Shown: piece after piece, positions 332 through 32,125 of the stretch
Position numbering within the stretch: position 1 is the first letter of the stretch
Layout of the letters: the number at the start of each line of letters is the position of its first letter
Source: a virus
Taxonomy: Duplodnaviria; Heunggongvirae; Uroviricota; Caudoviricetes
IMG/VR virus record: IMGVR_UViG_2700989508_000025
Direction: 5' to 3' (one strand)
DNA: 36,472 nucleotides
The notes under the pieces: model-generated
The model's input: only the letters and a program-made list of their open reading frames with translations
Databases searched by the model: none
What the model was told of the DNA's origin: nothing
Made by a program: the position numbers and the translations under genes

Positions 332-592
332 TTAATTTTGAGGTAAGGGCAAACTCATCTGATTGTTTCCTTTGTGTGAAGCTGGCAGTTCATGCCACGG
401 GATACCTTCTGAAGAGTGAGCGCCGGAGGCGTGTTTCGATGTGAATTTATGGAAAGCTTCCAGTGTTGAGAAGCATACGCCGCATTCTAGGTTGTTACAT
501 TGGTAATACTTTTGCCGCACAGTGTTTGAATCATTTTCCGGACGACTAGTGCGGATACGGGCAGATGCGCCACAAAGTGGACAACGGAACAT
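332..592 (-). CDS. ogr: Ogr/Delta-family zinc-finger late gene transcriptional activator
   Basis: 86-aa ORF starting MFRCPLCGASARIRTSR...YYQCNNLEC, i.e. a Cys4 finger (CxxC...CxxxxC) like P2 Ogr. Strong SD (AAGGGAGG) sits just upstream of the ATG at 592. Confidence 0.85.
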   Translation of the reverse strand: MFRCPLCGASARIRTSRPENDSNTVRQKYYQCNNLECGVCFSTLEAFHKFTSKHASGAHSSEGIPWHELPASHKGNNQMSLPLPQN

Positions 593-746
593 AGCGACCT
601 CCCTTACTGTGGTGCTTCCTCTATTCTAAGTTGTACTGATACAGATTCCAATTAACAGCTTGTCTTGTGTGAAAAGTGGAAGTTCACAATTGTGATAGCC
701 ATTACTAACGTTGTGATGTATTAGTCAACGGGAAACAAGGCATCTG

Positions 747-768
747 TAACATATCTATGGATATGTTA
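747..768. promoter_or_regulatory. Perfect 9-bp inverted repeat TAACATATC-N4-GATATGTTA in the ogr/hxsD divergent intergenic region (candidate operator)
   Basis: Read directly: arm 747-755 taacatatc, spacer tatg, arm 760-768 gatatgtta. Lies about 35 bp upstream of the hxsD-like start at 803. Confidence 0.4.
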
Positions 769-802
769 TATTATTGTTGCCATAGGAAAAATCCGCTTTA
801 AA

Positions 803-1117
803 GTGGTTGCTGATCATGAATATTTGTATTGGAAGATAATTGCAATGAGCGAAAGAGTGTTTGAGAAAGAACTATATTCTGAATGGGTTATACGCAATAG
901 TCTATATTGGATGACTCCGCTTACTCGATGGAAACTCCATGAAGACGTTTCCCACTGGATAATCTCTTTTGAAAACGATAATCCCAAATTCCTTTATGAA
1001 TTCGATAGGCTGCTTAATGATTACTCTTTGCGAGAAAAGCTACAGCATAAAACAGGGGCGTTGAGAGACTCTATTGTCCATAAAGTGCTTCGCAGTGTTG
1101 ATGAGAGGCTTTCATAA
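803..1117 (+). CDS. Small protein, first gene of the hxs-like operon (HxsD-like candidate)
   Basis: 104-aa ORF whose TAA stop overlaps the ATG of the next gene (1117). No recognisable motif; the assignment is by operon position only. Confidence 0.4.
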   Translation: MVADHEYLYWKIIAMSERVFEKELYSEWVIRNSLYWMTPLTRWKLHEDVSHWIISFENDNPKFLYEFDRLLNDYSLREKLQHKTGALRDSIVHKVLRSVDERLS

Positions 1118-2505
1118 TGGAATTGATGCCATTTAATTTTGACAGATTGCCTAATGGACAGGTGTTTATAAGCAACCTTGCAGGTTTTCATCATTTCATT
1201 GGTGAGCAAGACCTTATTGATCTTTCTGATGAGCGAATTAGTTCGGAGCAATCAAACGTGCTAGAAAGTAAGCTTTTCATAACCAGTGAAAGCTCATCTG
1301 CTATAACTCCCTATGCTTTAAGTTCTGCTTTTGCAAAACGATTGATGAATGAACTGGCTGTCAGGCCAATTTTCATGATTGTACCCACATTACGTTGTGA
1401 CCATACATGCAAGTATTGCCAGGTTAGTAGAGCTTCTGTTAATGCCTCAGGTTACGACCTAAATCCTGAGCTCATCCCCGATATTATTTCGGCTATTAAA
1501 AAACTATCAACGCCACCTTACAAAATAGAGATACAGGGTGGGGAGCCTCTCTTGCGGTTTGATTTAATTCAGAGCATCTATGATCAATGTGCTGAAACGC
1601 TGGGAAGAACCAATTTTGAGATGGTGGTGGCATCAAGTCTGTCCGTCTTGAATGAGGATATGATTGAATGGTCGAGAGACCGGAACATAACGTTCTCTGT
1701 GTCGCTTGATGGTGAGGAAGTTGTTCACAACAGTAATCGAATTCTTGGTCGTGGGCTTGCGTACAGTAGAACAGTGTCAGGGGTAGAGGCTATCAAACAC
1801 TCTTTAGGTGCTGGCCGCGTTGCAACGGTTACTACAGTTACTAAAGAGCTTATCAAACGTCCTGAATCGATTGTTCAGGCTCACTTGTCTCTTGGTCTCA
1901 AGGACATGTTTATCCGACCTGTTAGTCCCTATGGGTTTGCACAAAAAGCTTCTTTCACCTTTTCTATGGACGAATACTTCAGCTTCTATGCCTCGTTGAT
2001 AGATGAAATCCTTAAGATTAATAATGAAGGGATAAGGGTTGTGGAACATTCGGCCTCCATTCATCTGAAAAGGATCTTCAATCCCGGTTTTAGTGGTTAT
2101 GCGGATTTAAAGTCTCCAAGTGGAGTCGTGCTTAACAGTATTCTTTTCAATTATGACGGTCGAGTATATGGTAGCGATGAGAGCCGTATGTTGCAGAAGG
2201 TGAATCCTGAAACGGAGTTCAGTGCGGGTGAAGTTAAGACGCTATCATTTTCTGATAGTCCTTACTATAACGCAGTATTGAGTTCATCGTTCAATTTTGC
2301 TCTGCCAGGTTGTGATACATGTGCATATCAACCATTTTGTGGTTCAGATCCATGCCAGAACATAAGTGTACAGGGTGAGCCTGTCGGTGATAGGAGTCGT
2401 TCAACGTTTTGTCAATATCACAAGGGGATGTTCAGGTATCTGATGAACTGCATCTCAGAGGGTGGTTCGAAGGCTGAGATGCTAAAAGGATGGGCATATG
2501 TCTGA
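1117..2505 (+). CDS. Radical SAM enzyme with C-terminal SPASM-type Cys cluster (HxsB-like maturase candidate)
   Basis: 462 aa. CxxxCxxC motif in LRCDHTCKYCQ, Gly-rich IQGGEPLL, and a C-terminal Cys-rich segment PGCDTCAYQPFCGSDPCQ typical of SPASM domains. Confidence 0.75.
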   Translation: MELMPFNFDRLPNGQVFISNLAGFHHFIGEQDLIDLSDERISSEQSNVLESKLFITSESSSAITPYALSSAFAKRLMNELAVRPIFMIVPTLRCDHTCKYCQVSRASVNASGYDLNPELIPDIISAIKKLSTPPYKIEIQGGEPLLRFDLIQSIYDQCAETLGRTNFEMVVASSLSVLNEDMIEWSRDRNITFSVSLDGEEVVHNSNRILGRGLAYSRTVSGVEAIKHSLGAGRVATVTTVTKELIKRPESIVQAHLSLGLKDMFIRPVSPYGFAQKASFTFSMDEYFSFYASLIDEILKINNEGIRVVEHSASIHLKRIFNPGFSGYADLKSPSGVVLNSILFNYDGRVYGSDESRMLQKVNPETEFSAGEVKTLSFSDSPYYNAVLSSSFNFALPGCDTCAYQPFCGSDPCQNISVQGEPVGDRSRSTFCQYHKGMFRYLMNCISEGGSKAEMLKGWAYV

Positions 2506-3610
2506 GGTTATCAGGAACGATATCTTTCATTTTGCTTCTACAGAGAACGTGCCCACGGGGTTCTATCGGTTATGCAAACAAAAACCAGTGAACCCTTTAT
2601 TCTTTTTGCCCAATTTGCTAGTAGTTGCTGAAGGCAATAATGATGCCATTCCACCATGCTTTGATTTCTCTGTTATTAGCACTGAATTATTTGAGTCAAT
2701 TGAAGATGGAGATATTGGGATAATCAACAATGGCAATATGATACGCGTTATTCTGTCACGCAAAGCCAATCATAATACTGTCTTAGTTACGGAACGCTGC
2801 AATAACTTGTGTCTGTTTTGTTCGCAGCCACCAAAGAAAATAAATGATGACTGGCTACTTACCCAATCAGCTCTTGCTATAGCTTCATTTGGCTTGAACG
2901 GAGTTGTTGGGGTCAGCGGTGGTGAACCTTTGCTATATGGGGATGACTTCCTTCACTTCATTGATTTTATCATCGAGAATTCACCAGATACTGCTTTACA
3001 TGTTTTAACAAACGGACGCAAATTTGCTGATATCAACTTTACACAGGAAATGGCAAAGCGAAGCAAAAAGATCAAAATCACCTTTGGTATCCCGCTCTAC
3101 TCATCAAGACCACTTGTGCATGATCATCTGGTAGGGAGTGATGGCGCATTTAATGAAACGGTTAAAGGGTTAATCAATGCAGGAAACTTGGGGATTAATA
3201 TCGAACTTAGAGTTATTCCTACACTGGCTAACTATACCGAATTGGATGATATTGTAGAATTCGCTGGCCGTGTGTTCTCCAACATCAATCAGATTTCCCT
3301 TATGGGGTTGGAGCCTATCGGTTGGGCACGAAAAAACTGGTCCACCATCTTCATTGATCACAGTAGTTATAGTGAGAAAATAATCTCTGCCATAGACGCT
3401 GCATACAGGTCAGGCATACCTCTGACAATTTTTAATTATCCTTTGTGTTATCTTCCTGAAAGGGCTAGGGAGCTTGCTGTTCAGTCGATCTCTGATTGGA
3501 AAAATTACTATCCAAAAGAATGTGATGAATGTACTCAGAAGCCTTCCTGTGCTGGCTATTTCAGTTCCTCAAAAGGCCGTTTTCATCAATCACCGAGACC
3601 AATTTTATGA
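2498..3610 (+). CDS. Radical SAM enzyme (HxsC-like maturase candidate)
   Basis: 370 aa. CxxxCxxC in TERCNNLCLFCSQ, Gly-rich VSGGEPLL, and C-terminal Cys residues (CDECTQKPSCAGYF). Overlaps the upstream gene by 8 nt and the downstream gene by ATGA. Confidence 0.75.
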   Translation: MSEVIRNDIFHFASTENVPTGFYRLCKQKPVNPLFFLPNLLVVAEGNNDAIPPCFDFSVISTELFESIEDGDIGIINNGNMIRVILSRKANHNTVLVTERCNNLCLFCSQPPKKINDDWLLTQSALAIASFGLNGVVGVSGGEPLLYGDDFLHFIDFIIENSPDTALHVLTNGRKFADINFTQEMAKRSKKIKITFGIPLYSSRPLVHDHLVGSDGAFNETVKGLINAGNLGINIELRVIPTLANYTELDDIVEFAGRVFSNINQISLMGLEPIGWARKNWSTIFIDHSSYSEKIISAIDAAYRSGIPLTIFNYPLCYLPERARELAVQSISDWKNYYPKECDECTQKPSCAGYFSSSKGRFHQSPRPIL

Positions 3611-4242
3611 AAAAGTTTAATTTTGCTGCTCTACTTCCGGGATTTTTGGCTCTCAACAATTCTGTATGGGCAAGCGATTCATCTACAGGAGCGAGTGATT
3701 TACCTGGTATGACTCTTAATGAGCATGATTTAGTGATAGCTCCACTTAACACGGAAGTCCCATTTTATATCGCAGGGCATCGAAGCCATAGCTCTCATAG
3801 GAGCCATAGCTCTCATAGATCCTCATCAGGTGGTGGATACTATGGTGGAAGTACCCCCTATTATCCAAAAACATACAGCTCACCACGTTCATCTGGTTCT
3901 TCAAGTTCAGGTGCAAGTTCCTCATCGTCCTCTTCCTCGGTGCGTGCACTTCGTTCTAACGATAATAATAGAACCACTAACACGAGTTCTGTTGGAACTT
4001 CAGAGGTTAACCGTACGAGTAATGGGCTTGCTTCTGATGCAGAGAAACGTAAGCGATTGATTATGCGAGTTCAGTTCGCATTGCTGGACAGGGGATTTTA
4101 TAACGGAAATATTGACGGCATAATGGGGCCATCCACAAGGCTGTCTGTGAAAAATTACCGCATTGCGAATGGATTACCGATTCCTGCAACTGAAACACTC
4201 GACACTCAATTGTTAAATTCTTTGAATATATTAGCTCGCTAA
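3607..4242 (+). CDS. Secreted His-Xaa-Ser repeat protein with C-terminal peptidoglycan-binding-like domain (HxsA-like precursor candidate)
   Basis: ATG at 3607 overlaps the hxsC-like stop. N-terminal signal-peptide-like MKKFNFAALLPGFLALNNSVWA. Five consecutive H-x-S triplets (HRSHSSHRSHSSHRS), then a Gly/Tyr and Ser-rich low-complexity stretch. The C-terminus (RVQFALLDRGFYNGNIDGIMGPSTRLSVKNYRIANGLPIPATETLD) resembles the PG_binding_1 fold. Confidence 0.7.
   Translation: MKKFNFAALLPGFLALNNSVWASDSSTGASDLPGMTLNEHDLVIAPLNTEVPFYIAGHRSHSSHRSHSSHRSSSGGGYYGGSTPYYPKTYSSPRSSGSSSSGASSSSSSSSVRALRSNDNNRTTNTSSVGTSEVNRTSNGLASDAEKRKRLIMRVQFALLDRGFYNGNIDGIMGPSTRLSVKNYRIANGLPIPATETLDTQLLNSLNILAR
3784..3819 (+). 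repeat. Tandem 18-bp direct repeat (agccatagctctcatag + g, two copies) encoding the His-Xaa-Ser triplets
   Basis: Read directly from the sequence: 3784-3800 and 3802-3818 are identical 17-mers. Confidence 0.8.
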
Positions 4243-4406
4243 ATCTCAGTGAGGTATAAATAAAAAGCAATAAATTATATTAGTCGCGCGTCCATTATTA
4301 GTGGGTAAGATCAAGGACCGTCTGCTCTGTGTTAGGGGCAGATGGTCAGATAAGACTGTGCCGTTTAGCCCGCTAGTACGTGTCTGGACTAATACATTTA
4401 AGAGTC

Positions 4407-5510
4407 TCATTCTGCTATCCATTCCGGGATTTTTGCCTCAAGCTCAAGCTGCGTGGTAAAGCCGCTGTTATCAATGGTGTGCTCGGCTTTCGCAATAATC
4501 CAGTCCTGATTATCAATCTCGCTTTTAAAGCCTGTTACCGTGCCATGCATTTCGGGGTAGAGTTCTGCGCGTCCACGTGCCAGTGTGATGGAGAACGCTG
4601 CGGCTCCGCGTTGTAGCTGCTGCCACTTTGCCGCCGCTGCGCGTCTTGCTGCCTGCTCGTTCTGATAAGTCTTGCGTAACACAAACACATTGCCTTCCGC
4701 GCCTTCCATATAATCACCTTCACGGCTGCTGCTTTTCTCCTTTTTGGGTTTTGGCGGTTTACGGCGTTTCACGCTGACTTTTTTCTTTTTCCCGTAATTA
4801 AGATCAAGCCAGTAGGCGCGTACCCCCGTATACGCCTCGCGGTCAGCAATACGGAACTGATGGCGATCGCCGCTGCTGCGTGTAATGGCGAACGAGGGCA
4901 ACGGCTGGCCCTGTGCGTTCACGCCACCACCTGGCATGATGAATAACAGATTGCCGCTTTTTACTGTGGTGATTGCGCCCAGCATTTCCGCCATGCGCGT
5001 AAGGAAGGACATGTCGCTTTCTTCGGTCTGGTCGGCGTGGTCGATTTCGATATCCATCAGCATTTCGCTGATTTGCGGTTTCAGACCATACCGATGAGCG
5101 ATGGCGGATACCACACGCTCAACGGTCACATCATGCCAGGACACCTCACGTTTAACGTTAAATTCATCCCGAAAATCTGCGCTTCTGGCTGAAACAGTCA
5201 GCCTGTCCGGCGGTCCTTCGTGAGCGATTTCATCAACAATGTAAGTGCCTTTTTCTGTCAGCGGTTCTCCTTTCCAGCCAATGAGAACCGTCAGGCGCGC
5301 GCCCCGTGGCGGTAGCTGCAACTGACCATCCGCATCATCCAGCGTGATGGTGAGCTGGTCCGCTTCAAATCCCCGGTTGTCGGTCAGTGACAGGCTCATC
5401 AGGCGCTCTGCCACGCCTGACAGCGTTTTACCCTCCGCGAGAATATCAAAATCCGGCATTTTCACGGGGTCTGTGCCCTGACTGAGCAATTGCATGGTGG
5501 TGTCGGTCAT
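4407..5510 (-). CDS. D: Tail protein D (late control gene D family)
   Basis: Track ORF 4407..5642 trimmed to the ATG at 5510 (MTDTTMQLL...), which is preceded by GGGAGGG. Similarity to gpD recognised by eye. Carries a Lys/Pro-rich insert (GKKKKVSVKRRKPPKPKKEK). Confidence 0.8.
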   Translation of the reverse strand: MTDTTMQLLSQGTDPVKMPDFDILAEGKTLSGVAERLMSLSLTDNRGFEADQLTITLDDADGQLQLPPRGARLTVLIGWKGEPLTEKGTYIVDEIAHEGPPDRLTVSARSADFRDEFNVKREVSWHDVTVERVVSAIAHRYGLKPQISEMLMDIEIDHADQTEESDMSFLTRMAEMLGAITTVKSGNLLFIMPGGGVNAQGQPLPSFAITRSSGDRHQFRIADREAYTGVRAYWLDLNYGKKKKVSVKRRKPPKPKKEKSSSREGDYMEGAEGNVFVLRKTYQNEQAARRAAAAKWQQLQRGAAAFSITLARGRAELYPEMHGTVTGFKSEIDNQDWIIAKAEHTIDNSGFTTQLELEAKIPEWIAE

Positions 5511-5667
5511 CTGTTCCCTCCCTGTGCGGCATGGTCGCATGTGCGTGCGGAGGGGGTTACTGCTTTTTGTTGTCGCCGTGGCGGGAGAACGGCGCAGGAG
5601 TGAGATTACGCGCGTGGTGGGTGATGATTGTTGCCGAATCATTTAACGGATACAAGGGGCTGAAGCT

Positions 5668-6852: not shown

Positions 6853-7364
6853 TGGCTGTGCCAAAACATCTTCGCTTTTTTACGCTGTTTGTGGATGGTG
6901 AAAACGAAGTGGGTAAGGTGACGTCCGTCACTCTGCCTAAGCTGACGCGCAAAACCGACAGCTACCGGGGTGGTGGCATGATGGGTGCGGTAAGTATTGA
7001 TCTCGGTCTGGACGACTCCGCGCTTGATGCGAGCTTTGTCATGGGGGGCGCAGTTCGTGAGCTGTTCCTTAAGTATGGCGGCACGATTGACGGCACGCTG
7101 CTGCGTTTTGCGGGTGAATATTACACCGATGCAGAAAGCGACCTGTATGAAGTCGAAATGCGCGGACGTGTGACGGAAATTGATATGGGGGAAGCCAAAC
7201 AGGGCGAAGCCACATCACACACTTACGCCATTAAAAACACCTACTACAAGCTGAGTGTTAACGATCGCCCGTTGTGGGAGATTGACCTGCTGAACTTCAT
7301 TTACCGGAAGGACGGCAAGGACATTGTGCCCGATCGCATCCGTTCCGCGCTCGGGCTTGGCTGA
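6852..7364 (+). CDS. FII: Tail tube protein FII
   Basis: 170 aa, immediately downstream of the sheath gene (ATGA overlap). Size and position match P2 FII. Confidence 0.85.
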   Translation: MAVPKHLRFFTLFVDGENEVGKVTSVTLPKLTRKTDSYRGGGMMGAVSIDLGLDDSALDASFVMGGAVRELFLKYGGTIDGTLLRFAGEYYTDAESDLYEVEMRGRVTEIDMGEAKQGEATSHTYAIKNTYYKLSVNDRPLWEIDLLNFIYRKDGKDIVPDRIRSALGLG

Positions 7365-7418
7365 TAAGTAATATGCAGGCGGCGCAGTGCGTCGCCTCTG
7401 ACTGAAAGGAGTTTCCTG

Positions 7419-7784
7419 ATGAAAGAGACGAAAAACATCGATACCGAAAACACGGTCGTTGCTGACACTGTGAAAGAAACCAGTGAGCGTGGCGTAAAAC
7501 TTACCCAACCAATTGAGCGAGGCGGCGAAAAAATCACGTATGTGGAGATCACCGGAGCTATTGAGCAGGCTGGATCTCTGCGAGATTTGTCGCTGTCTGA
7601 TGTGCTGAATCTGAAAGCGGAATCCATGTTTACGCTGCTGTCACGCGTGACATCACCGCGACTGGATGAAGTGACGATCAAAAAAATGGCATCCCGTGAC
7701 TTTATTCAGTTATGTGTGGTTGCCGTAAATTTTTTGAGCGGTGCGGACTCTGGCGGGAAGAACGAACAGGCGACGGAAGCCTGA
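7419..7784 (+). CDS. E: Tail assembly chaperone E
   Basis: 121 aa, positioned between the tube and tape-measure genes. Contains the T6G slippery site near its 3' end. Confidence 0.75.
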   Translation: MKETKNIDTENTVVADTVKETSERGVKLTQPIERGGEKITYVEITGAIEQAGSLRDLSLSDVLNLKAESMFTLLSRVTSPRLDEVTIKKMASRDFIQLCVVAVNFLSGADSGGKNEQATEA

Positions 7785-11348: not shown

Positions 11349-11399
11349 CTCTTAACCTTATAATATGTGTCGTCTGAAATAATAATTAAGGAGATTATC

Positions 11400-11972
11400 G
11401 TGCTGTCTTACTTAATGGCAATTCACTTTGTTTTATTTGGGAACTCTACTAATTTAAAAAACTTCTGGAAATATGAAGTAATTCGGCGGAAACGTATGGA
11501 TATCTGGAGGCTTTTAAGAGAGAAAAAACAGCGTAACCGGAATTTCCTTTTCTGGTGGCGGTTGGCTAACGAAATGTATATTAATGGTAATAAATTACAT
11601 AAGAAAGCAGCCAAAAAGTTAAACAGTAAAATAATTAACAAATTTGGTTGTGAAATTGGATTGGGCGCAAATATTGGAAAAGGGTTAACAATTCCCCATC
11701 ATGCTGGAATTGTTGTTCATTTTGCTGTTGATGCTGGTGAAAATCTGGTGTTACGACAGAATACGACCATTGGACAGATAGATGGTGACATACCTGGTTC
11801 AAGAGTAAAAATTGGTAGCAACGTTGATATCGGAGCTAATTGTTGCATCATTGGATTATCCCGTAAAATTGGGGATAATGTAAAAATAGGTGCAATGTCT
11901 TTTATAAATAAAGATATACCATCGAACTGCACATATATAACTAAAAAGAGCGGTGCTGTATTGTATAAATAG
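11400..11972 (+). CDS. Hexapeptide-repeat (left-handed beta-helix) acetyltransferase, serine/sugar O-acetyltransferase-like
   Basis: Repeated [LIV]-G-x-x-x-x-I motifs (GANIGKGLTI, KIGSNVDIGANCCIIG, KIGDNVKIGA). Start placed at GTG 11400, preceded by AAGGAG at 11388-11393; the track ORF starts at an earlier GTG (11367). Region is AT-rich by eye. Confidence 0.7.
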   Translation: MLSYLMAIHFVLFGNSTNLKNFWKYEVIRRKRMDIWRLLREKKQRNRNFLFWWRLANEMYINGNKLHKKAAKKLNSKIINKFGCEIGLGANIGKGLTIPHHAGIVVHFAVDAGENLVLRQNTTIGQIDGDIPGSRVKIGSNVDIGANCCIIGLSRKIGDNVKIGAMSFINKDIPSNCTYITKKSGAVLYK

Positions 11973-12018: not shown

Positions 12019-12594
12019 TTGTGGGGCGACTGGCCACTCAATATCTGCTGCTACTGTTGTATCAACACGATGCAACAATACTCGATATGTCTTCCATGCA
12101 GCCAGTAACGATGTCTCTTCCTCCGTCGCAATATCTAAATCTATAGCATCCTGAAGTGGTGCAATATGCTCACTGGCTACCTGCATCAGGCTGTTTTTTG
12201 TTTCTTCCGCCTCCCTTATCCGAAATAGTTTGTCTGCTTCTGCATCTTTCACCCAGGATGTGCCGTTCCACTTCTGATACTCTTCATACGGCGACAACCA
12301 GGTAACATTTTCCGGTAACGGACCGAGTTCAGAAATAAATAACGAGTCCCCTGATGCCACGTCATAAACCGTTTTACCCCGATGGTCTTCAACGAGATGC
12401 CACGATGCCTCATCACTGTTGAAAACGGCCACGAAGCCAGCCGGAATATCTGGCGGGGCAATATCGGTACTGTTTGCAGGCAGACCTGTATGAGGTGGAA
12501 TGTATGCATCACCTTCACCAATAAACTCATTGGTTCCGGTCAGTAGATTATAAATTTTTATGGTCCGTGATTGTTCACTCATTCTGAATGTCAT
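12016..12594 (-). CDS. G: Tail fibre assembly protein G
   Basis: 192 aa, directly downstream of the tail fibre gene (ATGA overlap at 12592-12596). Position matches P2 G. Confidence 0.7.
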
Positions 12595-27237: not shown

Positions 27238-28197
27238 TTACTCCTTGTCCATTGCGTACAGCCCATTAACCAGAGCAAACTGTGGCACCCCGTCCGCGAT
27301 GAAAGTCGCATTAACTCCGCAGGCTTCGCGGATAGCGGGTGCCACAATCTCCGCCCCTCCACCGACAACCATCACCCGCCCGTAACCCGAAAAAACCGCC
27401 AGCGCGCGGATCACGCGTTGTTTCAGTGTTTCTTCCTTTTCACGAATAACCGCCATCAGGCTGGCGTAATGCGCGTCATTGTGGATGTGCTGGCGCAGCC
27501 AGGCTTCATCATGGCGATGTTCGATAATGGTATTGGCGATGTGGTGACTGGTGCGCATACCGTTAGTGGCCATCACCGCCAGTACGGCATCGGCCATCAG
27601 AGAAACGCCTACGTGTGGATCGCAAAACACCTGGCTGATACCTGCCAGGTGCCCCTGAACCTTTGCCACATCCAGCGTGGTTCCGCCCAAATCCACAATC
27701 AGCAGGGATTCAAACGGACTCATGTCAGCCAGTGCCTTAAAGCCAGCCGGAATGGATTCAGGCATAACCCGCACGTTACGGATAGTGAATGCTTCGCCGT
27801 TCTGGTACTCCACCGGGCGCATAACGTTCGCTTTTTTGCGGTTGATGTTGGCCATGTCCGGCTGTGCGTTTGTGTCGAAATACTCGCTCAGTGGCAGGGT
27901 GACAACCACATCCACCTCCTGTGGTGTGATGCCTGATTTGACCAGCGCGTGATGAATGGCAATGACATTCACATCGCTGTATTGGTATTGCGTGTCGGTC
28001 GTCTGGACAAAGCGATCGCTGACCGGATCAAAACCATAGCGCACGCCATCAAGCATGTAGTTCGCGGGCTGCGTGCCACCGAACGGCGCAGACCATTCCG
28101 ACTTGAAGCTGTTCGGGCTGATGGCGTTGCGGCGTTCGCCGTTCTCAGTCCATGCCAGCTTGATGTTGGTGGAGCCGTCGTCGATACAAATTTTCAT
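27238..28197 (-). CDS. parM: ParM/StbA-family actin-like segregation ATPase
   Basis: 319 aa. Strong resemblance to R1 ParM throughout (MKICIDDGSTNIKLAW, SDVNVIAIHHAL, VMPESIPAG, DLGGTTLD, VVGGGAE). SD AAGGAAAAG sits upstream of the ATG at 28197. Confidence 0.85.
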   Translation of the reverse strand: MKICIDDGSTNIKLAWTENGERRNAISPNSFKSEWSAPFGGTQPANYMLDGVRYGFDPVSDRFVQTTDTQYQYSDVNVIAIHHALVKSGITPQEVDVVVTLPLSEYFDTNAQPDMANINRKKANVMRPVEYQNGEAFTIRNVRVMPESIPAGFKALADMSPFESLLIVDLGGTTLDVAKVQGHLAGISQVFCDPHVGVSLMADAVLAVMATNGMRTSHHIANTIIEHRHDEAWLRQHIHNDAHYASLMAVIREKEETLKQRVIRALAVFSGYGRVMVVGGGAEIVAPAIREACGVNATFIADGVPQFALVNGLYAMDKE

Positions 28198-31803: not shown

Positions 31804-31982
31804 GGTGTGGCCTCTTTGCTCGGTGATAGAAATAGCTCACCATCCAGAGTTGAGAATCTCGGGGTGGCGAGACGTACAGGGTTCTCAACACCGGAGAGCA
31901 AAGAATCCGGCCCGACCGAAGTCGGCCCCGTACGCCCCGCCATAATTCTGACGCGAAAAAGACGTGGCAATACAGTACGCAC

Positions 31983-32003
31983 AAAAAAACCGCTGGCGCG
32001 GTT
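31983..32003 (-). terminator. Candidate rho-independent terminator on the minus strand (aaccgc-gcca-gcggtt followed by T7)
   Basis: On the plus strand: A7 at 31983-31989, then aaccgc/tggc/gcggtt. On the minus strand this reads as a hairpin followed by TTTTTTT, about 120 nt after the 99-aa ORF. Confidence 0.5.
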
Positions 32004-32125
32004 ATGCGCTTTGCTCTGTATCGGGTTGAGAATCCCGGCACCCGTTTTATGAGGTGCAGCGGAAATGTAACCTGACCGATTGCGGCATGGCAAGCGGTTT
32101 TTTTGTGTGTGCATGTTCTGGTTTC

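What the first reader, a model, noticed from the sequence alone, without database searches (positions are those of the whole stretch)
3607..4242. HxsA-like substrate combines a signal peptide, His-Xaa-Ser repeats, Ser-rich low complexity and a peptidoglycan-binding-like C-terminus
The putative precursor is not a short leader-core peptide but a roughly 211-aa exported protein. It has an N-terminal signal-like sequence, an HRSHSSHRSHSSHRS block encoded by a perfect tandem 18-bp DNA repeat, a GGGYYGG and poly-Ser tract, and a C-terminal domain resembling PG_binding_1. This implies the modified repeat region is anchored to the cell wall in the periplasm. The tandem DNA repeat could also allow repeat-number variation.
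Basis: partly seen in the sequence, partly recalled or inferred. Interest (0 to 1): 0.65.

Follow-up and report, generated by a model that had tools for sequence, protein, structure and literature searches.

The report
Known HxsA antiphage effector precursor
This gene encodes HxsA, the exported, cell-wall-anchored His-Xaa-Ser repeat protein of the HXS antiphage system, which was annotated years ago and characterised experimentally in 2026; it is an ordinary family member, notable only for sitting as cargo inside a P2-like prophage.

Summary
Window 3607-4242 (+) is a 211-codon ORF. It has a Sec-type N-terminus (cleavage motif VWA|S after residue 22), five His-Xaa-Ser repeats (aa 58-72), GGGYYGG, a Ser-rich linker and a C-terminal three-helix PG_binding_1-type domain (aa ~144-210).

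It matches NCBIfam TIGR03979 (HxsA) end to end, above the curated cutoff. It is the last gene of a translationally coupled hxsD-B-C-A operon, and RefSeq already annotates it as hxsA. Li et al. (Nat Commun 2026, PMC13128918) showed for an E. coli operon of the same layout that HxsB, HxsC and HxsD mature HxsA. Maturation comprises N-terminal processing and a +8 Da modification on SHRSS. They also showed that the periplasmic protein blocks phage DNA entry.

One sub-claim fails. The 18-bp DNA repeat (1.9 copies) belongs to this allele only. Other E. coli alleles encode the same peptide with different synonymous codons. All 46 genomes carrying this allele have exactly 636 bp. Family-wide, the repeat count stays between 4 and 6.

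A small addition from this work: the operon here is a 3.8-kb low-GC insert placed exactly between gpD and ogr of a P88-like prophage.

Verdict: already known, low interest.

The parts
845..1117 (+). hxsD, the small accessory protein (RefSeq start; an upstream in-frame GTG lies at 803)
   Evidence: TIGR03976 scores 90.6 bits against a cutoff of 50. It is annotated hxsD in NC_013361.1. The LYW and LLNDYSLRE motifs are present.
1117..2505 (+). hxsB, a radical SAM/SPASM maturase
   Evidence: TIGR03978 scores 560 bits against a cutoff of 370. It carries C94/C98/C101 and C399/C402, the numbering mutated in Li et al..
2498..3610 (+). hxsC, a radical SAM maturase; it overlaps hxsB by 8 bp and hxsA by 4 bp
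   Evidence: TIGR03977 scores 397.5 bits against a cutoff of 267.9. It carries C101/C105/C108 and C342/C345.
3607..4242 (+). hxsA, the 211-aa precursor of the periplasmic effector (the finding)
   Evidence: TIGR03979 scores 161.8 bits against a cutoff of 121.65, matched end to end. RefSeq annotates it as WP_012817792.1 hxsA.
3607..3672 (+). Sec-type signal peptide, aa 1-22 (MKK / hydrophobic core / VWA|S)
   Evidence: Rule-based analysis. The segment is unusually conserved for a signal peptide (mean top-residue frequency 0.53). SignalP 6.0 gave residues 1-22 for an E. coli HxsA in PMC13128918.
3673..3747 (+). Pro-region, aa 23-47, removed or processed in an HxsBCD-dependent way
   Evidence: The paper found it was not recovered by MS yet is required for defence. 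It is variable across the family (0.18) but invariant among E. coli alleles despite 29-35 synonymous differences over codons 1-92.
3778..3822 (+). Five His-Xaa-Ser repeats, HRSHSSHRSHSSHRS, aa 58-72
   Evidence: H58, S69, H70 and S72 are invariant across 107 homologues. Mean column conservation is 0.90.
3784..3818 (+). 18-bp perfect tandem DNA repeat, 1.9 copies
   Evidence: Tandem Repeats Finder. It is specific to this allele and is already broken by one synonymous change in a 99.4% identical allele.
3811..3825 (+). SHRSS, aa 69-73, the published site of the +8 Da modification
   Evidence: The motif is present. The modification was mapped by MS/MS in PMC13128918. These are the most invariant columns here.
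3829..3849 (+). GGGYYGG, aa 75-81
   Evidence: SSGGGY is conserved across the family (0.72).
3877..3939 (+). Ser-rich low-complexity linker, aa 91-111
   Evidence: The poly-Ser part (aa ~103-112) is an insertion confined to the enterobacterial clade (column occupancy ~0). It is disordered in the model. The paper found residues 114-139 of its HxsA dispensable.
4036..4236 (+). C-terminal PG_binding_1-type three-helix domain, aa 144-210
   Evidence: Pfam scores 22.3 bits against a gathering score of 23. 102 of 107 homologues match. The SleB domain 6tci is found by sequence and by fold. Block-mean pLDDT is 86-97 over aa 141-210.
634..4409 (.). Inserted cargo segment carrying the hxs operon, between gpD and ogr of the prophage
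   Evidence: Homology to phage P88_4B11 stops at 633 and resumes at 4410, and the phage has only 10 bp at this position. GC is 0.37-0.44 here against 0.53-0.60 in the neighbouring tail genes.
741..4245 (+). Core hxs module shared with copies in other E. coli mobile islands
   Evidence: blastn against seven other loci: ~90% identity over 741-4245 for five of them and ~72% over 821-4243 for two.
332..592 (-). ogr/Delta-like late-gene activator of the prophage (left flank of the insert)
   Evidence: Pfam Ogr_Delta scores 52.3 bits. RefSeq annotation.
4407..5642 (-). gpD tail/baseplate hub gene of the prophage (right flank; the true start is probably internal)
   Evidence: Pfam Phage_GPD scores 62.7 bits. 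It is 97.8% identical to gene D of Xuanwuvirus P884B11.

Best explanation
The ORF is hxsA, the substrate and effector of the four-gene HXS (His-Xaa-Ser) antiphage system.

Proposed mechanism, step by step:
1. The 211-aa precursor is made in the cytoplasm.
2. The radical SAM enzymes HxsB and HxsC, with HxsD, process its N-terminal region. They also install a small covalent modification (+8 Da) on the last repeat, SHRSS.
3. The Sec-type N-terminus takes the protein to the periplasm.
4. The C-terminal PG_binding_1 domain holds it on the murein layer.
5. The disordered Ser-rich linker lets the basic, modified HxS block reach incoming phage DNA or the ejection channel and stall genome entry.

What is shown here by sequence: family membership, domain order, operon structure, the catalytic Cys motifs, and conservation.

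What is shown in the literature for a homologous E. coli operon: all four genes are required; processing depends on HxsB, HxsC and HxsD; the protein is periplasmic; the +8 Da modification exists; DNA entry is delayed.

What is inferred only: that this particular allele is active, that the domain actually binds peptidoglycan, and that DNA is engaged electrostatically.

In this window the operon is cargo inserted between gpD and ogr of a P88-like (P2-family) prophage. It probably serves the lysogen, and so the prophage, as a broad block to superinfection.
For: - All four proteins pass the curated NCBIfam equivalog cutoffs: HxsA 161.8/121.65, HxsB 560/370, HxsC 397.5/267.9, HxsD 90.6/50.
- The gene order D-B-C-A with overlapping stop and start codons is the order the paper reports for 99.6% of systems.
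- The Cys residues mutated in the paper occur at the same positions here: HxsB C98/C101 and C399/C402, HxsC C105/C108 and C342/C345.
- The chymotryptic peptide 48-78 containing SHRSS maps exactly onto N48-Y78 of this protein.
- The invariant columns S69, H70 and S72 coincide with the modified and essential motif.
- Residues 1-92 are identical in six of the eight other E. coli alleles (one substitution in each of two; one of the six also lacks seven residues), despite 29-35 nucleotide differences in the divergent alleles.
- The C-terminal fold matches solved PG_binding_1 domains.
- Published function: PMC13128918.
- Prophage cargo.
Against: - The experimentally tested operon (strain MEM, HxsA of 214 aa) was not retrieved. 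The C-terminal half of this allele differs from the other E. coli alleles examined (5-13 aa differences in the last 70 residues for the seven divergent alleles), so activity of this allele is assumed.
- Pfam PG_binding_1 is 0.7 bits below the gathering score for this sequence.
- No peptidoglycan pull-down exists in the sections of the paper I read.
- The paper itself lists several alternatives to electrostatic DNA capture and could not reconstitute the modification in vitro.
- PADLOC 2023 has no model for the system, so the defence role rests on one study.
Confidence: 0.9

Rival explanations
1. HxsA is a RiPP-type natural-product precursor. A small modified peptide containing the HxS block is cut out and released as a secreted bioactive compound, and the rest of the protein is a carrier. 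This was, to my recollection, the original in-silico reading of the system.
For: HxsB resembles SPASM peptide maturases (PapB family 71 bits, CbpB, and others). Short HxsA variants without a C-terminal domain exist: the NCBIfam HxsA2 and HxsA3 profiles are 96 and 81 positions long, and Leptospira phage LE1 carries a 99-aa HxsA.
Against: The C-terminal domain is as conserved as a folded functional domain (0.55). Mutating it abolishes the phenotype. MS recovered nearly all of residues 48-214 as one processed protein, and no antibiotic-like activity has been reported.
Confidence: 0.05
2. HxsA is a periplasmic, wall-attached metal-binding protein. The His-rich block would chelate Ni, Zn or Cu, and the antiphage effect would be indirect or an overexpression artefact.
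For: The block holds five His in 15 residues with flanking Ser, a pattern common in metal-binding tracts. The paper did not test metals in the sections I read.
Against: The operon travels with defence genes on mobile islands (Gabija-like nuclease plus helicase, an Abi family protein, ABC-three-component genes) and on a prophage, not with metal transporters. Two radical SAM enzymes would not be needed for simple chelation. The published escape mutants map to the T7 ejectosome proteins gp15 and gp16.
Confidence: 0.04
3. The repeat block is a contingency (phase- or length-variable) locus. Slippage on the 18-bp DNA repeat would change repeat number and tune or switch the system.
For: A perfect 35-bp tandem exists in this allele. 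One metagenomic singleton (P0004) lacks exactly one 6-aa unit.
Against: There is no length change in 46 genomes with this allele. The DNA repeat is absent from the other alleles while the peptide is identical. Two copies of 18 bp make a poor slippage substrate. Every repeat is reported essential.
Confidence: 0.02
4. The operon in this prophage is a silent or decaying passenger with no current function.
For: IS elements interrupt or abut hxs operons in some strains (H12, H74, L009). No strong promoter or terminator was detected.
Against: All four ORFs are intact and the coupling overlaps are preserved. The allele is 99.4-100% conserved in 46 genomes from varied hosts. The substitution pattern shows strong purifying selection.
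Confidence: 0.05

Closest known systems
HxsA of the HXS antiphage system (NCBIfam TIGR03979; Li et al., Nat Commun 2026, PMC13128918)
   Same: End-to-end profile match. It shares the signal peptide (1-22), five HxS repeats ending in SHRSS, the Ser-rich linker, the PG-binding C-terminus, the D-B-C-A operon and the Cys motifs of both maturases.
   Different: This allele has 211 aa against the 214 aa of the tested protein, and its linker and C-terminal domain diverge from the other E. coli alleles. It lies in a P88-like prophage rather than a chromosomal island. The paper frames HXS as an intrinsic bacterial system, with 77% of operons outside predicted prophages.
Short HxsA variants (NCBIfam HxsA2 NF038296, HxsA3 NF038309; the 99-aa HxsA of Leptospira phage LE1, KF114877)
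   Same: They share the HRSHSSHRSHSSHRS-type block and neighbouring hxsD, hxsB and hxsC genes.
   Different: They have no Ser-rich linker and no PG_binding_1 domain, and the gene order is A-D-B-C in LE1. The window protein scores only 25 and 18 bits on these models, below their cutoffs of 48 and 65.
Phage-encoded superinfection exclusion at the DNA-entry step (T4 Imm/Sp, as cited in PMC13128918)
   Same: It is encoded on a phage genome here, acts in the envelope, and the published phenotype of the family is blocked or delayed genome entry.
   Different: There is no sequence relationship. HXS needs enzymatic maturation by two radical SAM proteins and is reported to be broad-spectrum (110 of 113 coliphages), whereas Imm and Sp are narrow.
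PG_binding_1 (PF01471) domains of SleB, SltB2/SltB3, CtpB and phage endolysins
   Same: The three-helix bundle aligns over 55-62 columns at rmsd 1.7-2.7 A with 25-34% identity. The shared sequence pattern is seen in the SleB alignment.
   Different: Here the domain is attached to a disordered, post-translationally modified repeat region rather than to a hydrolase or protease domain.
RiPP precursors matured by SPASM radical SAM enzymes (ranthipeptide/PapB, sactipeptides, and others)
   Same: The substrate gene is co-operonic and translationally coupled, the target motif is repeated, and SPASM-type auxiliary cluster cysteines are present in HxsB.
   Different: The product is a ~160-190-aa protein with a folded domain, not a short peptide. 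The N-terminus is a Sec signal rather than a classical leader.

Membership tests
HxsA (TIGR03979), HXS system | Full-length match to the equivalog model above the curated cutoff | tested here: met
   161.8 bits against 121.65; protein residues 4-209 match profile positions 4-189 of 190.
HxsA (TIGR03979), HXS system | Contiguous His-Xaa-Ser repeat block (HRSH...SHRS) about 50-60 residues from the N-terminus | tested here: met
   Five repeats at aa 58-72. In the 108 full-length homologues counted the runs have 4-6 units in 104, almost always starting at aa 49-63.
HxsA (TIGR03979), HXS system | Encoded next to hxsB, hxsC and hxsD | tested here: met
   hxsD 845-1117, hxsB 1117-2505 and hxsC 2498-3610 are all above cutoff and have overlapping ends.
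HxsA (TIGR03979), HXS system | N-terminal signal peptide | tested here: met
   Rule-based only: MKK, a 13-residue hydrophobic core, VWA|S, no lipobox, no twin-Arg. No SignalP run was possible. The paper reports SignalP 6.0 residues 1-22.
HxsA (TIGR03979), HXS system | Radical SAM CxxxCxxC and auxiliary-cluster cysteines in both maturases | tested here: met
   HxsB C94/98/101 and C399/402; HxsC C101/105/108 and C342/345.
HxsA (TIGR03979), HXS system | HxsBCD-dependent processing, +8 Da modification on SHRSS, periplasmic location, inhibition of phage DNA entry | not testable with these tools
   These are known only from experiments on another E. coli operon (PMC13128918). The SHRSS motif is present here at aa 69-73.
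PG_binding_1 (PF01471) | Score at or above the Pfam gathering threshold | tested here: inconclusive
   22.3 bits against 23 for this sequence. 102 of 107 homologues match, best E 6.6e-19.
PG_binding_1 (PF01471) | Three-helix fold superposable on solved PG_binding_1 domains | tested here: met
   AlphaFold2 helices 144-161, 175-188 and 200-205, with block-mean pLDDT 86-97. Top Foldseek matches are 6tci, 5anz, 7qvd, 4c2c and 5tv7, each with prob 0.98-1.00. E-values are weak (0.024-0.76) because the domain is small.
PG_binding_1 (PF01471) | Actual binding to peptidoglycan | not testable with these tools
   No pull-down here, and none in the sections of PMC13128918 that I read; only loss of function on mutation.
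Contingency locus (slippage-variable tandem repeat) | Repeat copy number differs among closely related strains | tested here: not met
   46 of 46 genomes with the >=99% allele have 636 bp. All nine E. coli alleles have five repeats. The DNA repeat is not conserved.
Prophage-encoded superinfection exclusion module | Located within a prophage as an accessory insert absent from close relatives | tested here: met
   The insert at 634-4409 lies between gpD and ogr, where P88_4B11 has 10 bp. The low-GC island is shown. 44 E. coli genomes share the ogr-hxsD junction.
Prophage-encoded superinfection exclusion module | Expressed from the lysogen and excludes incoming phages | not testable with these tools
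   Only weak promoter-like matches lie upstream of hxsD (746-774 and 777-804).

The most novel reading that the evidence does not exclude
The HXS operon here is a genuine phage-borne, broad-spectrum superinfection-exclusion moron. It would have been acquired as a tight ~3.5-kb module (about 741-4245) at a gpD/ogr insertion point of P88-like temperate phages. Current P2 hotspot surveys did not register it because their tools (DefenseFinder, PADLOC) apparently did not model HXS; PADLOC 2023 has no HXS model. A further speculative point concerns the N-terminus. It is unusually conserved and under strict purifying selection (0-1 aa changes against 29-35 nt changes in codons 1-92), and it may serve both as Sec signal and as recognition leader for HxsB, HxsC and HxsD.
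Probability: 0.45. Interest if true: 0.35.

Novelty: already known. Interest (0 to 1): 0.15.

Why it matters
For the finding as written, it matters little. The architecture is the textbook definition of a curated family and its biology was published in 2026.

The residual value is contextual. About 28% of hxs-positive complete E. coli genomes (44-46 of 156) carry this allele inside a P88-like prophage. A system described as an intrinsic bacterial barrier to phage DNA entry is therefore also spread by temperate phages, for which it would act as a broad exclusion device.

The allele comparison gives a clean natural experiment. The whole N-terminal 92 residues are frozen, while the linker and the anchor domain drift.

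Tried and rejected
- PADLOC-DB 2023 holds no HXS model. Only weak viperin-type hits to the two radical SAM proteins appeared, so it was of no use for classification.
- A DNA search of 50,697 phage records with the operon found nothing. tblastn with HxsB found only Leptospira phage LE1 and one faecal contig.
- I tried to locate the experimentally tested allele (strain MEM, CP012378) among complete E. coli genomes by searching with the 214-aa allele. It did not appear in the 60 rows listed, so direct identity to the tested protein is not established.
- The promoter and terminator scans were no better than shuffled controls (13 against 9.1 promoter-like sites; 4 against 3.5 terminator-like sites). 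No intrinsic terminator was found after hxsA.
- I first suspected that the FI-U tail block was inverted relative to P2. I rejected this as a rearrangement because the same order is the norm in P88-like phages.
- Rfam found no RNA family inside 600-4400.
- The opposite-strand and alternative-frame ORFs within 3607-4242 (63-76 aa) lie inside a gene under strong purifying selection. I did not search them for homologues and did not pursue them.
- I searched two P2 hotspot papers for ogr, Hxs and radical SAM. Neither mentions them.
Full report
**What is at the coordinates.** Window 3607-4242 (+) is an intact ORF of 211 codons. Its ATG overlaps the stop codon of the upstream gene (ATGA), and it ends in TAA at 4240-4242. 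The translation reads: MKKFNFAALLPGFLALNNSVWA|SDSS...AGHRSHSSHRSHSSHRSSSGGGYYGG...SSGSSSSGASSSSSSSS...EKRKRLIMRVQFALLDRGFYNGNIDGIMGPSTRLSVKNYRIANGLP...LNILAR.
- The N-terminus has two Lys, a 13-residue hydrophobic core (maximum 9-residue Kyte-Doolittle mean 2.18), and V at -3 and A at -1 before Ser23. It has no Cys and no twin-Arg motif. That fits a Sec / signal peptidase I substrate, but this is a rule-based call because no SignalP was available.
- Tandem Repeats Finder reports an 18-bp period with 100% match over 3784-3818, but only 1.9 copies. The first and fifth HxS units use other codons.

**The C-terminal domain.**
- For this sequence alone, Pfam PG_binding_1 reaches 22.3 bits (aa 154-191, E 1.6e-4) against a gathering score of 23.
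- The family settles the matter: 102 of 107 aligned homologues match PF01471, best E 6.6e-19.
- phmmer of the last 70 residues against the PDB finds the SleB peptidoglycan-binding domain (6tci, E 1.9e-4).
- An AlphaFold2 model built on the 107-sequence alignment is confident only for aa 144-210 (block-mean pLDDT 86-97; helices 144-161, 175-188, 200-205). Residues 1-143 are low-confidence and lack regular secondary structure.
- Foldseek against the PDB returns SleB, SltB3, SltB2, CtpB and a C. difficile peptidoglycan-binding protein as the top hits, and ten of the eleven best are murein-acting or peptidoglycan-binding proteins. They align over 55-62 columns at rmsd 1.7-2.7 A. E-values are weak (0.024 and above), as expected for a 65-residue domain in a mostly disordered query.

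**What it is.**
- The protein matches NCBIfam TIGR03979, 'His-Xaa-Ser repeat protein HxsA', from end to end (161.8 bits, cutoff 121.65, profile positions 4-189 of 190).
- The three upstream genes match HxsD (90.6 bits, cutoff 50), HxsB (560, cutoff 370) and HxsC (397.5, cutoff 267.9).
- The combination of signal peptide, HxS repeats, low-complexity linker and PG-binding C-terminus is therefore not an unusual feature of this gene. It is the family's defining architecture.
- The region is 100% identical over 600-4400 to E. coli O26:H11 str. 11368 and ten other complete genomes. There RefSeq already annotates the genes as hxsD, hxsB, hxsC and hxsA.

**What is known about function.** Li et al. (Nat Commun 2026, PMC13128918) cloned an E. 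coli hxsDBCA operon and reported the following.
- It gave protection against 110 of 113 coliphages, and all four genes were required.
- Adsorption was unaffected. T7 DNA entry was delayed, and escape mutations mapped to the ejectosome proteins gp15 and gp16.
- HxsA has a signal peptide (1-22) and a PG-binding region, both needed for defence.
- An N-terminally processed form was recovered from the periplasm, and processing needed HxsB, HxsC and HxsD.
- A +8 Da modification lies on SHRSS within peptide 48-78.
- Replacing any one HxS repeat with AAA abolished defence.
- Periplasmic HxsA bound DNA in vitro.

The window proteins fit that description position for position. Peptide 48-78 here is NTEVPFYIAGHRSHSSHRSHSSHRSSSGGGY, bounded by chymotryptic sites. 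SHRSS lies at aa 69-73. The mutated cysteines (HxsB C98/C101 and C399/C402; HxsC C105/C108 and C342/C345) are present at the same numbers.

I could not retrieve the tested strain (MEM, CP012378), whose HxsA has 214 aa. Identity to the tested protein is therefore not established.

**Independent evidence from homologues.** The large protein search returned 617 relatives. In an alignment of 107 full-length sequences:
- H58, S69, H70 and S72 are invariant, and R59, S60, H61, S63, H64, S66, H67, R71, S73 and G75 are at least 90% conserved.
- By region, mean top-residue frequency is 0.90 for the HxS block and 0.72 for SSGGGYY. It is 0.57 for the preceding APLN..P.Y.AG segment and 0.55 for the C-terminal domain.
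- It is an unusually high 0.53 for the signal peptide, but only 0.18 for residues 23-43 and 0.26 for the linker.
- The poly-Ser run is an insertion confined to the enterobacterial clade.
The invariant residues coincide with the published modification site.

**Repeat-number variation.** This is the one part of the interpretation that fails.
- Among the 108 full-length homologues counted, the longest contiguous run has 5 units in 66, 6 in 24, 4 in 14, 3 in 2 and 2 in 2. Some clades carry two blocks.
- The counts follow clades, for example 6 in the Proteus/Providencia entries. They are not scattered.
- I extracted eight other E. coli alleles with 78-99.4% nucleotide identity. All nine alleles, counting the window's, encode exactly HRSHSSHRSHSSHRS. 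The other alleles spell it with different synonymous codons, so the perfect 18-bp DNA repeat exists only in the window allele. A 99.4%-identical allele already has an AGC/AGT mismatch within it.
- All 46 complete genomes with the >=99% allele have a 636-bp gene.
- One metagenomic singleton (P0004) lacks exactly one 6-aa unit, so slippage can happen. There is no sign that it is used.
- In codons 1-92 the divergent alleles differ from the window at 29-35 nucleotides but at 0-1 amino acids. In the last 70 codons they show 26-58 nucleotide and 5-13 amino-acid differences. The repeat is held by selection on the peptide, not by DNA homogenisation.

**Genomic setting.**
- The window is a P2-family prophage lying between btuC and ihfA.
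- Its tail genes are 95-98% identical to P88-like phages of the genus Xuanwuvirus. These share the arrangement in which the FI-U block is divergent from gene D.
- In phage P88_4B11, gene D and ogr are 43 bp apart. Against that phage, homology ends at window 4410 and resumes at 633, with only 10 phage bases between. Window 634-4409 is therefore a 3,776-bp insert carrying the hxs operon in the opposite orientation.
- Its GC content is 0.37-0.44, against 0.53-0.60 in the adjacent tail genes.
- The part shared with other E. coli copies is tighter, about 741-4245, ending at the hxsA stop codon.
- Those other copies lie in integrative, mobilisable islands, four of the seven next to ssrA. The islands carry relaxases and defence-type genes.
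- 44 genomes share the ogr-hxsD junction, out of about 1,200 with an ogr homologue and 156 with hxsA. That agrees with the paper's figure of 23% of operons overlapping predicted prophages.
- No deposited phage genome holds this operon at the DNA level. PHROGs, however, contains unannotated families equal to HxsC and to the HxsB C-terminus. Leptospira phage LE1 carries hxsA-D-B-C with a 99-aa HxsA that has five HxS repeats but no PG-binding domain.

**Mechanism and rivals.**
- The best-supported reading is the published one: cytoplasmic maturation by HxsB, HxsC and HxsD, then export, wall anchoring, and interference with genome entry.
- Membership and anatomy are shown here. Maturation, location and phenotype are shown elsewhere for a homologue. 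Peptidoglycan binding and electrostatic DNA capture remain inferences.
- I rate the rivals low: a released RiPP product, a metal-binding protein, a slippage-variable contingency locus, and a silent passenger. The reasons are given with each rival.

**Verdict.** The repeat-variation idea is not supported. The only modest additions from this work are the precise prophage insertion point, the allele-level evidence of selection on the first 92 residues, and the fact that the DNA-level repeat is incidental. Novelty: already known. Interest: low.

Noticed in passing
window 634-4409: The hxs operon is a 3,776-bp low-GC insert placed exactly between the gpD stop codon and ogr of a P88-like (Xuanwuvirus) prophage, where phage P88_4B11 has only 10 bp. 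The module shared with other E. coli islands is about 741-4245. The two P2 hotspot papers I searched do not mention ogr, Hxs or radical SAM.
   Followed up: partly
window 11367-11972 (+) and 12053-12251 (-): A second low-GC (0.35) cargo gene lies after gpU. It is a hexapeptide-type 'serine acetyltransferase', and it sits where P88 phages carry a DNA invertase and alternative tail-fibre genes. An Rfam IS009 match (173 bits) lies next to it.
   Followed up: no
window 31860-31947 (-) and 31983-32057 (-): Rfam matches to C4 antisense RNA (78.5 bits) and isrK Hfq-binding RNA (62.8 bits) lie in the early region of the prophage.
   Followed up: no
window 27238-28197 (-) and neighbours: A ParM-like gene and a 'plasmid partitioning/stability' gene occupy the gpA-gpQ accessory hotspot of the prophage, where P2 carries old and tin.
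   Followed up: no
window 3607-3882 (hxsA codons 1-92): Between divergent E. coli alleles there are 29-35 nucleotide differences but 0-1 amino-acid differences. This includes the signal peptide and the 23-47 pro-region, which is variable across the wider family. The signal peptide is also as conserved family-wide as the folded domain, which hints at a role beyond Sec targeting.
   Followed up: partly
L005:9001-9615 (E. coli O55:H7 RM12579 hxsA): This allele lacks seven residues (SDSSTGA, between two ASD triplets). They fall inside the 23-47 region that Li et al. report as required for defence. Whether it is still active is unknown.
   Followed up: no
H12 (NZ_CP035860.1), H74 (NZ_CP155523.1), L009:9977-12592: IS elements interrupt or abut hxs operons in some strains: IS2 within the hxs operon (between or in hxsB/hxsC by the annotation order), an IS3-family element in hxsA, and an IS66-family element between hxsA and gpD with a partly deleted tail region.
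   Followed up: no
L012:3242-6551 (Leptospira phage LE1, KF114877): This deposited phage or plasmid-prophage genome carries hxsA-D-B-C. Its HxsA is 99 aa, with five HxS repeats (HRSHSSHRSHSSHRS) but no linker or PG-binding domain.
   Followed up: partly
window 4407-5642 (-): RefSeq annotates gene D of this prophage as only 265 aa plus a pseudogene fragment. The window has an uninterrupted ORF that is 97.8% identical to the 369-aa gene D of P88_4B11, so this is probably an annotation artefact.
   Followed up: no
window ~7364-7784: ORF ends downstream of this stretch are shifted by about 10 bp relative to NC_013361.1 coordinates. The window may therefore come from a different strain carrying the same prophage.
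   Followed up: no
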